From the NCBI GenBank assembly GCA_014435945.1, contig GCA_014435945.1_4088.1: a stretch of DNA of 64,000 nucleotides; one strand, given 5' to 3'. Positions 624 through 1,550 of the stretch are shown piece by piece. How positions within the stretch are numbered: the stretch's first letter is position 1; every line of letters begins with the position of its first letter. The notes under the pieces were generated by a model that saw only the letters and a list, made by a program, of their open reading frames with translations, ran no database searches and was not told the DNA's origin. The DNA comes from a phage. A program made the position numbers and the translations under genes.

Positions 624-1550
624 TTGAAAAAAGCGAAAAAAGCACTGAAAACTAAAATTGCCGTAGGCGTATTAGTTTCATCAGCCCTATTCGCTGCTAT
701 TGGATTTTATGGTTTTTCTCAAAGTGATCATGTACCATCATTAGACGAAAGTCAGGTGCATAATTTAAAACCACAGTTTACTCAAATTCAAAAGCAGGAA
801 CTACCAAAGGTATCAGTACCAAAAGCAGTTCCAAGCAGCGAGAAACATTATACGGTTCAACCTGGTGATAGTTATTATTCTATTGCACAGAAATTTAAAC
901 CTAAAAATGTACAGATTGAAGATTATGTCATTTTGTTGAAGAACATCAACTTAAATGCAACTCTTCATACTTCTCAGGGTATCTTTATCCCAACAAAAGA
1001 GGATTTGAAGCACGTATTGTTACCAGATGTGACTGTACTGTTTGATTATAAAGATCCAGAAATTGTCAATCACATCAAAGAAGCTGAAGGTTCTATTGAA
1101 TTTCAGTCCAAGAACAAACGACGTTTACTTGGTGGGAAAGTTGGAGTTCCATATCGAAATTCTAAATTTTATCCGTATCGTGATATAAAAGGTAACTTCA
1201 CTATTGGGTACGGACATTATCTTGGAAAGAAAGAATCAGATGCAAGTAAGTATCGTAATGGTATTACGAAGTCACAAGCACATAAACTTTTATTGTCTGA
1301 CATGGAACGAACTAATAATGATTTAGTTTTATTATTGAAGAAAAGAAATGCAACAAACCTTACGGCTGAACAACAACGAATTTTATTTGAGATGGCATTT
1401 ACATTAGGAGTTGATAAGTTAAATACTTTCAATAAATTATGGAAAAGCGTTGATAATCAAAATAATAACAAGTTCAAAAAAGAAATTAAGAATTCTCTAT
1501 GGTATCGTCAAGTAGGAAACCGTGCAGAATTGTTAGTTAGTAATTTGTAA
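624..1550 (+). CDS. membrane-anchored LysM + T4-lysozyme-like (GH24-like) peptidoglycan hydrolase
   Basis: track ORF 597-1550; TTG at 624 follows AAAGGAGG RBS; N-terminal hydrophobic helix, LysM-like YTVQPGDSYYSIAQ, C-terminal region aligns by eye to T4 lysozyme (DIKGNFTIGYGH ... WYRQVGNRAELL). Confidence 0.55.
   Translation: MKKAKKALKTKIAVGVLVSSALFAAIGFYGFSQSDHVPSLDESQVHNLKPQFTQIQKQELPKVSVPKAVPSSEKHYTVQPGDSYYSIAQKFKPKNVQIEDYVILLKNINLNATLHTSQGIFIPTKEDLKHVLLPDVTVLFDYKDPEIVNHIKEAEGSIEFQSKNKRRLLGGKVGVPYRNSKFYPYRDIKGNFTIGYGHYLGKKESDASKYRNGITKSQAHKLLLSDMERTNNDLVLLLKKRNATNLTAEQQRILFEMAFTLGVDKLNTFNKLWKSVDNQNNNKFKKEIKNSLWYRQVGNRAELLVSNL

What the first reader, a model, noticed from the sequence alone, without database searches (positions are those of the whole stretch)
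624..1550. Membrane-anchored LysM lysozyme-like protein apparently lacking the catalytic Glu
The C-terminal domain aligns by eye to T4 lysozyme around the Asp20/Thr26 region, but the position of catalytic Glu11 is occupied by Arg with no acidic residue nearby. It is preceded by a transmembrane helix and a LysM-like segment. This could be a signal-anchored endolysin with a shifted catalytic residue or a non-catalytic peptidoglycan-binding protein.
Basis: partly seen in the sequence, partly recalled or inferred. Interest (0 to 1): 0.4.

Follow-up and report, generated by a model that had tools for sequence, protein, structure and literature searches.

The report
Membrane-anchored jumbo-phage lysozyme, catalytic Glu present
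This gene encodes the membrane-anchored LysM-lysozyme that Rak2-like giant phages of enterobacteria are already predicted to use for bursting the cell; its catalytic glutamate is not missing, only pushed 23 residues upstream by a family-specific insertion, so the finding is essentially ordinary.

Summary
Window 624-1550 (+) is a real 308-aa gene with a conserved TTG start and an AAGGAGG Shine-Dalgarno. The window comes from an Asteriusvirus/Rak2-like jumbo coliphage.
- basic N-tail and one TM helix (residues 12-32)
- a roughly 40-aa disordered linker
- a LysM domain (about 75-122)
- a T4-type GH24 lysozyme domain (about 140-308)

Arg178 does sit 9 residues before Asp187, as reported. But the "missing Glu" is an alignment artefact. 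A conserved 23-residue insertion (158-180) separates helix alpha-1 from the beta-hairpin. Local HMM alignments therefore start at T4L residue 16-18 and skip the helix.

Multiple alignment and a chain of profile-profile alignments through lysozymes with a 13-residue insertion place invariant Glu155-Gly156 on T4L Glu11-Gly12. The triad is Glu155/Asp187/Thr193, spaced E-x31-D-x5-T. One intermediate-class lysozyme, LysUE1, is experimentally lytic.

Orthologues (CBB_187, 121Q gp532, RaK2 ORF029, phAPEC6 gp293) are already annotated. CBB_187 was described in 2017 as a TM-LysM-lysozyme endolysin. The orthologue is absent from the phAPEC6 virion proteome.

Most likely it is a Sec-exported, inner-membrane-tethered active muramidase acting in lysis. 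Whether it is released like a SAR endolysin is unresolved.

Interest is low. A conserved, once-per-genome 5' leader element is a side observation.

The parts
480..507 (+). Sigma-70-like promoter-like hexamers TTGATA-16 nt-(TG)TATACT in the 167-bp intergenic region upstream
   Evidence: This is a consensus scan only: 10 of 12 matches with an extended -10 TG. The number of such sites in the region is no higher than in shuffles. The hexamers are conserved in Turkey3 and phAPEC6. Function was not shown.
538..577 (+). Conserved gene-specific leader element: box TGTAGAAAGTCCAA followed by GAGGCTTTTGCAAATGGCCTC
   Evidence: The element is conserved across Asteriusvirus, Eneladusvirus, Mimasvirus, the SE_PL group, and partly RaK2. 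It is unique in the 64-kb window. A pattern scan of viral contigs gave 12 loci, one match per contig. In all 11 with enough downstream sequence it sits about 90-110 nt upstream of the orthologous lysozyme gene. There is no Rfam match. Its role is unknown.
613..619 (+). Shine-Dalgarno AAGGAGG
   Evidence: Read directly from the sequence. It is conserved in orthologous loci.
624..1550 (+). CDS of 308 aa with TTG start: membrane-anchored LysM-GH24 lysozyme (stop codon 1548-1550)
   Evidence: ORF list. Full-length match to phrog_15410, E 7.5e-157. The protein is 99.7% identical to phage TH47. Orthologues are annotated lysozyme, endolysin or LysM protein in more than 30 phage records. The TTG start is conserved in Turkey3, phAPEC6 and Yersinia phage fHe-Yen9-03.
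624..719 (+). Residues 1-32: basic cytoplasmic tail (1-11, net +6) and single TM helix or signal anchor (12-32, IAVGVLVSSALFAAIGFYGFS)
   Evidence: Hydropathy and charge analysis. A positive N-side and a hydrophobic segment are present in all 36 family members examined.
720..839 (+). Residues 33-72: low-complexity Q/P/S/V-rich linker, length-variable in the family
   Evidence: pLDDT is below 50 over residues 1-71. These are the indel-rich columns of alignment A1.
846..989 (+). Residues 75-122: LysM domain
   Evidence: Pfam PF01476, E 2.4e-4, just above the gathering score. 16 of 26 family members hit LysM. The AF2 model shows E75-77, H84-91, H98-108, E119-121 with pLDDT of about 90.
1041..1547 (+). 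Residues 140-308: T4-type GH24 lysozyme domain
1086..1088 (+). Codon GAA = Glu155, the catalytic Glu equivalent to T4L Glu11 (followed by invariant Gly156)
   Evidence: Invariant in 26 family sequences. It falls in the invariant Glu column with T4L in A3. The transitive hhalign chain places it on Glu11. It is the last residue of predicted helix 145-155.
1095..1163 (+). Residues 158-180: 23-residue insertion between the catalytic Glu and the Asp-bearing beta-hairpin. It consists of a 13-aa part shared with the phage's other lysozymes plus a further 10 residues specific to this family (residues 165-174, KRRLLGGKVG, in the hhalign placement).
   Evidence: Alignment A3. hhalign gaps of 10 and 13 residues. 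Spacing census. The insertion contains invariant Q161, R166, L168, G171. It is predicted with pLDDT 86-94 as short beta-strands.
1182..1184 (+). Codon GAT = Asp187, equivalent to T4L Asp20
   Evidence: HMMER alignments. Invariant in the family.
1200..1202 (+). Codon ACT = Thr193, equivalent to T4L Thr26
   Evidence: HMMER alignments. Invariant in the family and in A3.
1556..1590 (+). Intrinsic-terminator-like hairpin (13-bp perfect stem AUAAAGGAUGAUA/UAUCAUCCUUUAU, then a U run) just after the stop codon
   Evidence: strand folding gives -15 kcal/mol, z = -4.06 against shuffles. The consensus scan missed it because the stem has fewer than 3 G-C pairs.

Best explanation
The gene encodes a catalytically complete T4-type (GH24) muramidase. 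The enzyme is exported by the host Sec system independently of any holin and is held on the periplasmic face of the inner membrane.

Topology:
- An uncleaved N-terminal signal anchor (N-in, C-out).
- A roughly 40-residue flexible linker.
- A LysM domain that docks the enzyme on glycan strands.
- The lysozyme domain, which cleaves the MurNAc-GlcNAc bond with Glu155 as the general acid, assisted by Asp187 and Thr193.

The Glu-Asp spacing is 31 residues instead of the canonical 8. A conserved beta-rich 23-residue insertion sits at a known insertion hotspot between helix alpha-1 and the beta-hairpin.

The protein is the predicted endolysin of Rak2-like jumbo phages, or one of two. Expression is probably kept low by the conserved TTG start. 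Activity against the sacculus is presumably restrained while the membrane is energised or the enzyme is tethered.

Shown here: gene, architecture, fold, conservation and equivalence of the catalytic triad, non-virion status of the orthologue, conserved synteny.

Inferred: export, topology, enzymatic activity, role in lysis, and any release or activation step.
For: Catalytic site:
- E155, G156, D187 and T193 are invariant in 26 homologues at 39-84% identity.
- E155 aligns with T4L E11 by MAFFT and by transitive hhalign.
- Spacing classes among 226 retrieved proteins are 8, 13-14, 21 and 30-31 residues. This shows a graded insertion series at one site.
- LysUE1 belongs to the 21-spacing class. 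It is the Asteriusvirus UE-S1 162-aa paralogue (sequence) and lyses E. coli in turbidity assays (PMC12805682). The shared part of the insertion is therefore compatible with activity.

Fold:
- AF2 pLDDT is 86-96 for residues 72-308.
- T4L is the top structural match.

Export and anchor:
- The +6 N-tail, the 21-residue hydrophobic segment and the acidic C-flank fit the positive-inside rule.
- Every family member has a TM segment or a signal peptide.

Role:
- The phAPEC6 gp293 orthologue was not detected in the virion proteome, whereas tail lysozyme gp241 was (PMC7247149).

Expression:
- TTG start and Shine-Dalgarno are conserved across genera.
- The gene has its own terminator hairpin.
Against: - No enzymatic, topological or genetic experiment exists for this protein or a close orthologue. 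The CBB toxicity is 'data not shown'.
- The gene is not in a lysis cassette. It lies in a conserved block of RNA-repair and translation genes (2H phosphoesterase, RaiA-like S30AE, CCA-adding enzyme, NUDIX, glutaredoxin) with no adjacent holin or spanin.
- The same genomes encode a soluble 162-aa T4-type lysozyme that is lytic in vitro. That enzyme could be the holin-dependent endolysin.
- I could not superpose coordinates. The 3-D equivalence of E155 and E11 rests on sequence chains and predicted secondary structure.
- Direct profile alignments to T4L never include the helix.
Confidence: 0.62

Rival explanations
1. The protein is an active, exported muramidase but not the lysis endolysin. The soluble 162-aa T4-type paralogue (LysUE1/CBB_239 type) does the holin-dependent lysis. 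The anchored LysM enzyme has an accessory periplasmic job, such as local remodelling or thinning of the sacculus during the long jumbo-phage cycle, priming of lysis, or interference with superinfecting phages.
For: - There are three GH24 paralogues per genome.
- The small one is lytic in vitro. It was not confirmed as a virion protein in CBB.
- The anchored gene sits among RNA and translation genes rather than lysis or late structural genes. A sigma-70-like promoter-like site lies upstream.
- Some distant family members carry a 45-100-aa cytoplasmic N-terminal extension before the TM segment. This suggests a stable, possibly regulated, membrane protein.
Against: - The 162-aa paralogue lies between gp25-like and gp5-like baseplate genes, so it may be tail-associated instead.
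- Induction of the anchored orthologue alone is toxic to E. coli.
- No positive evidence exists for any non-lytic role.
Confidence: 0.25
2. It is a true SAR (signal-anchor-release) endolysin. The TM segment leaves the bilayer when a pinholin collapses the membrane potential, releasing soluble active enzyme. This is a sub-case of the best explanation, scored separately for the release step.
For: - The window protein's TM segment is fairly weakly hydrophobic and rich in Gly/Ala/Ser/Thr: 48%, Kyte-Doolittle 1.90.
- The CBB authors drew the same analogy.
Against: - Most family members have Leu-rich, more hydrophobic segments (Gly/Ala/Ser/Thr 22-40%, Kyte-Doolittle 2.0-2.8). Some have an internal TM segment after a long cytoplasmic extension, or a cleavable-looking signal peptide. 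SAR character is therefore not conserved.
- The TM segment is more than 100 residues from the catalytic domain and the protein has no Cys. The known SAR control mechanisms (disulfide caging in P1 Lyz, refolding of the SAR helix into the active site in R21; own knowledge) cannot apply.
Confidence: 0.2
3. It is a non-catalytic peptidoglycan-binding protein, a pseudo-lysozyme that lost its general acid.
For: Only the ungapped register: Arg178 lies 9 residues before Asp187, and there is no acidic residue in 160-186.
Against: - Glu155-Gly156, Asp187 and Thr193 are invariant down to 39% identity.
- Glu155 is homologous to T4L Glu11.
- Strict conservation of a whole triad is not expected in a pseudoenzyme.
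- A paralogue with the same EG...YQ...RNxKF motif is lytic.
Confidence: 0.04
4. It is a virion-associated lysozyme used for cell-wall penetration at infection.
For: [quoted passage not shown] PHROG and PDB similarity extends to tail and internal-virion lysozyme domains.
Against: - The orthologue was not detected in phAPEC6 virions.
- An N-terminal signal anchor does not fit a virion component.
- The real tail lysozyme is a separate protein of about 890 aa next to baseplate genes.
- The labels are similarity-transfer annotations.
Confidence: 0.03

Closest known systems
Predicted endolysin of Rak2-like jumbo phages: CBB_187, GAP32 gp180, 121Q gp532, RaK2 ORF029 ('e'), phAPEC6 gp293 (Buttimer et al. 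2017, PMC5259590; Simoliunas et al. 2013, PMC3622015)
   Same: These are direct orthologues at 50-82% identity; phage TH47 is 99.7% identical. They share the TM-LysM-lysozyme architecture, the genomic neighbourhood and the TTG start.
   Different: Nothing essential differs. In this window an HNH-endonuclease-like ORF is inserted between the lysozyme gene and the RaiA-like gene. The papers I read do not mention the Glu position or the E-x31-D spacing. This is absence of mention, not proof of novelty.
Phage T4 lysozyme (gene e product), GH24, PF00959
   Different: T4L is a soluble, single-domain, holin-dependent enzyme with E-x8-D spacing. This protein has a 23-residue insertion after the Glu-Gly, lacks the T4L 35-50 loop, and carries TM, linker and LysM modules.
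Paralogous lysozymes of the same phages: the 162-aa LysUE1/CBB_239 type, and the C-terminal domain of the roughly 890-aa baseplate hub/tail lysozyme (CBB_240, RaK2 ORF078)
   Same: They share the EG[ST]xxYQ...[YF][RK]NxKF motif and the 13-residue part of the insertion. LysUE1 is experimentally lytic.
   Different: They lack the extra 10 residues (KRRLLGGKVG-like) and have no TM or LysM. They sit in the baseplate gene cluster about 60 kb away, outside this window.
SAR endolysins (P1 Lyz, phage 21 R, phiKMV gp45)
   Same: GH24 catalytic domain, N-terminal membrane segment, Sec-dependent holin-independent export. The window protein's TM composition is similar.
   Different: In SAR enzymes the SAR helix directly abuts and regulates the catalytic domain (own knowledge). 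Here it is separated by a linker plus LysM, there is no Cys, and weak hydrophobicity is not conserved in the family.
phiCbK gp104-type endolysins with expanded Glu-Cys spacing (Gill et al. 2012, PMC3556154)
   Same: This is a precedent for an insertion between the catalytic Glu and the Asp/Cys of the T4-type triad. The proposed spacing is 16 residues instead of 8.
   Different: The loop there is Gly-Pro-rich rather than a conserved beta-rich 23-mer. That enzyme is soluble with no LysM or TM, and is not closely related.
Modular Gram-negative phage endolysins with a cell-wall-binding domain (KZ144, EL188)
   Same: A peptidoglycan-binding module plus a catalytic module in a phage of Gram-negative hosts. 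The CBB authors make this comparison.
   Different: Those enzymes use a PG_binding_1-type domain and a lytic transglycosylase domain, and they are soluble (own knowledge).

Membership tests
GH24 / T4-type phage lysozyme (Pfam PF00959) | Sequence match to the family profile above the curated threshold | tested here: met
   PF00959 scores 39 bits against a cutoff of 22.3, E 1.2e-9. All 26 family members match.
GH24 / T4-type phage lysozyme (Pfam PF00959) | T4-lysozyme fold (N-terminal helix, beta-hairpin lobe, helical C-lobe) | tested here: met
GH24 / T4-type phage lysozyme (Pfam PF00959) | Catalytic Glu at the C-terminal end of helix alpha-1 (T4L Glu11) | tested here: met
   Glu155 is invariant. 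It aligns to Glu11 by MAFFT and by the hhalign chain. It is the last residue of predicted helix 145-155. A coordinate superposition was not possible.
GH24 / T4-type phage lysozyme (Pfam PF00959) | Asp/Cys and Thr of the triad with D/C-x5-T spacing | tested here: met
   Asp187 and Thr193 are invariant and align with T4L Asp20 and Thr26.
GH24 / T4-type phage lysozyme (Pfam PF00959) | Canonical Glu-x8-Asp/Cys spacing (as stated in PMC3556154) | tested here: not met
   The spacing is 31 residues. The family belongs to a 30-31 class, alongside classes of 8, 13-14 and 21. This is a variant of the signature, not loss of a residue.
GH24 / T4-type phage lysozyme (Pfam PF00959) | Muramidase activity on peptidoglycan | not testable with these tools
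   The evidence is indirect only: the lytic paralogue LysUE1 and the reported toxicity of CBB_187.
LysM domain (Pfam PF01476) | Profile match and beta-alpha-alpha-beta fold | tested here: met
   The score is 21.4 bits against a cutoff of 20.9, covering only profile positions 1-17 of 43. 16 of 26 relatives match, best E 1.3e-6. The model has E75-77, H84-91, H98-108, E119-121. It is a divergent LysM, and glycan binding was not tested.
SAR (signal-anchor-release) endolysin | N-terminal TM segment with positive-inside orientation and no cleavage, on a muralytic enzyme | tested here: met
   Residues 1-11 are net +6, the TM segment is 12-32, and the C-flank is acidic. The -3/-1 positions G30/S32 could in principle allow cleavage, but this is not conserved in homologues. 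No dedicated signal-peptide predictor was available.
SAR (signal-anchor-release) endolysin | Weakly hydrophobic, Gly/Ala/Ser/Thr-rich TM segment able to exit the bilayer | tested here: inconclusive
   The window protein has 48% Gly/Ala/Ser/Thr and Kyte-Doolittle 1.90. Most family members have 22-40% and 2.0-2.8.
SAR (signal-anchor-release) endolysin | SAR helix contiguous with, and regulating, the catalytic domain (disulfide caging or refolding) | tested here: not met
   The TM segment and the catalytic domain are separated by more than 100 residues (linker plus LysM). The protein has no Cys.
SAR (signal-anchor-release) endolysin | Release from the membrane on depolarisation, with a pinholin partner | not testable with these tools
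   No holin or pinholin gene lies adjacent. An experiment is needed.
Rak2-like phage TM-LysM-lysozyme family (phrog_15410) | Full-length similarity, same architecture and same genomic position | tested here: met
   phrog_15410, E 7.5e-157 over residues 1-308. There are 77 full-length relatives. Synteny is conserved down to 39% identity.

The most novel reading that the evidence does not exclude
The enzyme is neither holin-released nor SAR-released. It would be a permanently tethered muramidase whose access to the sacculus is set by the roughly 40-residue linker and LysM docking. The lineage-specific basic 10-residue loop (KRRLLGGKVG) would modulate substrate access. Synthesis would be gated by the conserved, once-per-genome 5' leader element and the TTG start. 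That would be a third, so far undescribed way for a phage of Gram-negative hosts to control its endolysin. Alternatively it would be a non-lytic wall-remodelling function specific to jumbo phages.
Probability: 0.12. Interest if true: 0.55.

Novelty: already known. Interest (0 to 1): 0.18.

Why it matters
As submitted, the finding (a lysozyme without its general acid) would have suggested a pseudoenzyme or a new catalytic arrangement. That reading is wrong, so little is at stake.

What remains of modest value:
1. It is a clear example of a large insertion at the Glu/Asp hotspot of GH24 enzymes (E-x31-D-x5-T). Local profile alignments and the simple E-x8-D/C-x5-T rule both miss the Glu, which can cause active lysozymes to be mis-annotated as inactive.
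2. Rak2-like jumbo phages carry three paralogous GH24 domains sharing this insertion. Which one is the endolysin, and how a membrane-tethered LysM-lysozyme is controlled, has never been tested.
3. A conserved gene-specific leader element hints at dedicated expression control of a toxic enzyme.

Tried and rejected
- Direct alignment to T4L, by phmmer, by hmmsearch with the family profile, by hhalign of the family against T4L, and by hhalign of the family against a canonical GH24 alignment. All started at T4L residues 14-18 and never reached Glu11. They could neither confirm nor refute the Glu. The question was solved only through intermediates.
- Searching the PDB with the intermediate P0095 for a solved structure carrying the intermediate insertion. 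None was found. The best hits were T4L and gp5, aligned only from T4L residue 16 and gp5 residue 189 onward, plus a phiKMV-like internal virion protein aligned from P0095 position 25.
- tblastn of the lysozyme domain against the 64-kb window to find the paralogues. Nothing significant turned up. By comparison with related genomes, the paralogues probably lie outside the window.
- A scan of all window ORFs for TM or lipobox features to find a holin or spanin near the gene. The only plausible candidate is a conserved 63-aa single-TM ORF at 2619-2810, of unknown function (phrog_4189). No lysis cassette was found.
- An exact 14-mer scan of viral contigs for the leader box gave mostly chance hits. 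It was replaced by a 21-base gapped pattern.
- RNAalifold on 13 leaders gave a 9-bp hairpin with almost no covariation, because both arms are invariant. RNA structure is therefore neither supported nor excluded. MAFFT could not keep the upstream variable hairpin in register, so I folded the sequences individually.
- Rfam gave no credible match in 400-1700.
- The virion-lysozyme and pseudo-lysozyme readings were rejected for the reasons given under the rival explanations.
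Full report
**What is there**

The window is from a Rak2-like jumbo myovirus of E. coli (genus Asteriusvirus). Its first 6 kb are 97% identical to Escherichia phage Ecwhy_1 and 95-96% identical to several other phages of 350-385 kb.

The flagged interval lies in an ORF listed as 597-1550. The start that fits the evidence is TTG at 624:
- An AAGGAGG Shine-Dalgarno sits at 613-619.
- Homologues begin M-x-K-A-x-Q/K at this point.
- GenBank annotators chose the same start in Turkey3, phAPEC6, CBB and Yersinia phage fHe-Yen9-03.
- TTG itself is conserved in Asteriusvirus and in the Eneladusvirus phage fHe-Yen9-03.

The product is 308 aa and contains no cysteine.

**Check of the observation**

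- Residues 1-11 carry six Lys. Residues 12-32 (IAVGVLVSSALFAAIGFYGFS) form the only hydrophobic segment.
- Residues 33-72 are Q/P/S/V-rich, vary in length among homologues, and are modelled with pLDDT below 50.
- Residues 75-122 are a divergent LysM:
  - Pfam PF01476 scores 21.4 bits against a cutoff of 20.9, on the first 17 profile positions only.
  - 16 of 26 relatives match, best E 1.3e-6.
  - The model shows beta-alpha-alpha-beta with pLDDT of about 90.
- Residues 140-308 are a T4-type lysozyme domain:
  - PF00959, E 1.2e-9
  - family profile against T4L, E 3e-17
  - Foldseek probability 1.0
- Asp187 and Thr193 align with T4L Asp20 and Thr26. Arg178 is indeed 9 residues upstream of Asp187, and residues 160-186 contain no acidic residue.

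**Why the missing Glu is an artefact**

All local sequence alignments to T4L begin at T4L residue 14-18. This holds for phmmer, hmmsearch with the family profile, Pfam and hhalign. They do not show an Arg at the Glu position. They simply do not align that part.

In a 26-sequence family alignment (39-84% identity), a Glu-Gly pair at 155-156 (...HIKEAEGS...) is invariant, together with Asp187 and Thr193.

A profile search of 1.84 billion representative proteins with the C-terminal domain returned many small GH24 enzymes that align from the N-terminal helix onward. Their sequences form a bridge:
- Canonical enzymes read ...HEGLRLKPYKC/D...
- An intermediate class reads ...NEG[ST]xxYQxKxGx[FY][RK]NxKFYPYKD...
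- This family reads ...AEGSIEFQSKNKRRLLGGKVGVPYRNSKFYPYRD...

A MAFFT alignment of all three classes with T4L has a single invariant Glu column, E155 = T4L E11. It shows a 23-residue insertion (158-180) in this family.

Profile-profile alignments give the same answer stepwise:
- The family against the intermediate class: probability 100%, E 1.9e-45, one 10-residue gap, Glu on Glu.
- The intermediate class against the canonical class headed by T4L: probability 100%, E 2.1e-52, one 13-residue gap, Glu on Glu11.

A census of 226 retrieved proteins shows discrete Glu-to-Asp/Cys spacings: 8 (84 proteins), 13-14 (9), 21 (23) and 30-31 (83). This site is therefore an insertion hotspot. An expansion to 16 residues was proposed earlier for phiCbK-type endolysins (PMC3556154).

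In the AF2 model, Glu155 is the last residue of helix 145-155, as Glu11 ends helix alpha-1 of T4L. The insertion is modelled confidently (pLDDT 86-94) as short beta-strands. I could not superpose coordinates, so the 3-D equivalence is inferred.

**Is the insertion compatible with activity?**

The intermediate class includes the 162-aa lysozyme that Rak2-like phages encode next to their baseplate genes. P0095 is 96% identical to the CBB copy.

The Asteriusvirus UE-S1 version, LysUE1, reads ...KEFEGTISYQKKLGYFKNDKFWVYKDSLGLDTIGYGH.... It was purified and shown to lyse E. coli in the presence of EDTA (PMC12805682).

The C-terminal domain of the roughly 890-aa tail lysozyme has the same motif. All three GH24 paralogues of these phages therefore share the 13-residue insertion. 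The anchored one adds about ten more residues, KRRLLGGKVG, with invariant Arg166, Leu168 and Gly171.

**What it most likely does**

Several features predict an N-in/C-out signal anchor, that is, Sec-dependent export of the LysM and lysozyme modules to the periplasm without a holin:
- a positive N-tail
- a 21-residue hydrophobic segment
- an acidic C-flank
- no conserved signal-peptidase site

Every relative examined keeps an export signal. In most it is a Leu-rich TM helix. A few have a TM segment preceded by a 45-100-aa cytoplasmic extension. One has a cleavable-looking signal peptide.

The orthologue CBB_187 was already described as the predicted endolysin, with TM, LysM-like and lysozyme domains. 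Its induction inhibited E. coli growth, though those data were not shown (PMC5259590).

The phAPEC6 orthologue gp293 was not found in the virion proteome, whereas the 96-kDa tail lysozyme gp241 was (PMC7247149).

I therefore favour an active, inner-membrane-tethered muramidase acting in host lysis. Confidence in the full statement, including the lysis role, is about 0.6. Confidence in the narrower claim that it is an intact GH24 enzyme with Glu155 as general acid is about 0.9.

**What remains open**

- The SAR analogy is only partly met.
  - The window protein's TM segment is 48% Gly/Ala/Ser/Thr, close to P1 Lyz and R21 (sequences recalled from memory). Most relatives are markedly more hydrophobic.
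  - The TM segment is far from the catalytic domain and there is no Cys. The known SAR control mechanisms cannot apply.
- The gene is not in a lysis cassette.
  - Down to 39% protein identity it sits in a conserved block: RNA ligase, DUF2828, 2H phosphoesterase, [lysozyme], RaiA-like S30AE, CCA-adding enzyme, NUDIX, glutaredoxin.
  - Spanins of 121Q/PBECO4 are catalogued elsewhere (PMC6139136). RaK2 lacks T4-type holin and antiholin homologues (PMC3622015).
- The soluble 162-aa paralogue could be the holin-dependent endolysin. That would leave the anchored enzyme an accessory role (rival, about 0.25).

**Expression signals**

The gene looks like its own unit.
- It is preceded by a 167-bp intergenic region with a sigma-70-like TTGATA-16-TG-TATACT match. 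This is a consensus match only, and such sites are not enriched over shuffles.
- A 13-bp-stem hairpin with a U run follows immediately after the stop codon (z = -4.06).
- The leader contains a conserved element, TGTAGAAAGTCCAA followed by G-N-G-R-CTTT(G)TGCA. It is shared across genera whose surrounding intergenic DNA is otherwise unalignable.
- The element is unique in the window.
- A 21-base pattern found it in 12 viral contigs, once per contig, including eight contigs of 348-378 kb. In all 11 loci with enough downstream sequence it lies about 90-110 nt upstream of the orthologous lysozyme gene.
- The two conserved halves can pair (9 bp), but they never vary, so structure is unproven.
- In most genera a hairpin of variable sequence precedes the element: TAGTAC/GTACTA, TAGTCA/TGACTA, TTAACTC/GAGTTAA, CTAGTG/CACTAG, TCAGTAT/ATACTGA. 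This hairpin is absent from the window's clade.
- There is no Rfam family.

I did not establish a function for the leader element.

**Comparison and novelty**

The protein is a member of GH24/PF00959 with a non-canonical triad spacing. It is an orthologue of an already annotated and discussed family (phrog_15410; CBB_187, 121Q gp532, RaK2 ORF029). A 99.7% identical protein is in GenBank.

The architecture, and the idea that it is a signal-anchored endolysin, were published in 2017. The papers I read do not mention the E-x31-D-x5-T spacing, the shared insertion in the three paralogues, or the leader element. These are refinements.

Verdict: an ordinary, already known gene. The headline anomaly is an alignment artefact. 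Interest is low.

Noticed in passing
window 538-577 (also L004, L006, L008, L010, L031, L131-L141): A conserved, gene-specific non-coding element, TGTAGAAAGTCCAA + GNGRCTTT(G)TGCA, lies about 50-110 nt upstream of the lysozyme start codon. It occurs once per matching viral contig, most of them near-genome-length, across several genera. Its two halves can form a 9-bp hairpin but show no covariation. In most genera a hairpin of variable sequence (covarying stems) precedes it. There is no Rfam match. It could be a dedicated promoter or operator, or a regulatory RNA for a toxic gene.
   Followed up: partly
window 624-626; L001 6624; L003 1501; L004 1000: The TTG start codon of the lysozyme gene is conserved in Asteriusvirus phages and in the Eneladusvirus phage fHe-Yen9-03, even though their proteins are only about 54% identical. 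This suggests selection for weak translation initiation.
   Followed up: partly
window 1600-2232 (+): A 210-aa ORF matches only the C-terminal half of HNH endonuclease families (phrog_953, positions 198-400 of 420, E 3.6e-68). It is inserted between the lysozyme gene and the RaiA-like gene. It is absent at this position in Turkey3, phAPEC6, CBB and XaC1. It is probably a truncated or free-standing homing-endonuclease remnant, and it accounts for part of the 12% of the first 6 kb not shared with relatives.
   Followed up: partly
window 46-456, 2245-2577, 3759-4874 and downstream: The lysozyme gene is embedded in a conserved block of RNA and translation genes. Pfam scans of window ORFs support a 2H phosphoesterase-like protein (PF22547, below gathering score) and a ribosome hibernation/RaiA-like S30AE protein (PF02482). 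The CCA-adding tRNA nucleotidyltransferase, NUDIX, glutaredoxin and peptidyl-tRNA hydrolase are inferred from orthologous annotated loci. The synteny holds down to 39% lysozyme identity.
   Followed up: partly
window 2619-2810 (+): A conserved 63-aa ORF (phrog_4189, unknown function) has one N-terminal TM helix and a Cys-containing C-terminal tail, about 1 kb downstream of the lysozyme gene. It is the only small membrane protein nearby. It was not tested as a holin or antiholin candidate.
   Followed up: no
window 2807-3214 and 3201-3623 (+): Two adjacent ORFs both match phrog_20693 (E 3.9e-60 and 3.5e-53). They are a tandem duplication of a gene of unknown function.
   Followed up: no
proteins P0083, P0084, P0086, P0087 (metagenomic relatives; no window coordinates): Distant members of the TM-LysM-lysozyme family carry a 45-100-aa N-terminal cytoplasmic extension before the TM helix. 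The extension looks similar among P0084, P0086 and P0087. This hints at cytoplasmic regulation or partner binding in some lineages.
   Followed up: no
window 52517-62518 (-) and 62569-63960 (-): There is a 3333-aa ORF, probably the counterpart of the 382-kDa phAPEC6 virion protein gp245. Next to it is the start of a large baseplate-wedge-like ORF cut by the window end. By comparison with UE-S1, the 162-aa lysozyme and the tail lysozyme paralogues are expected just beyond the window end.
   Followed up: no
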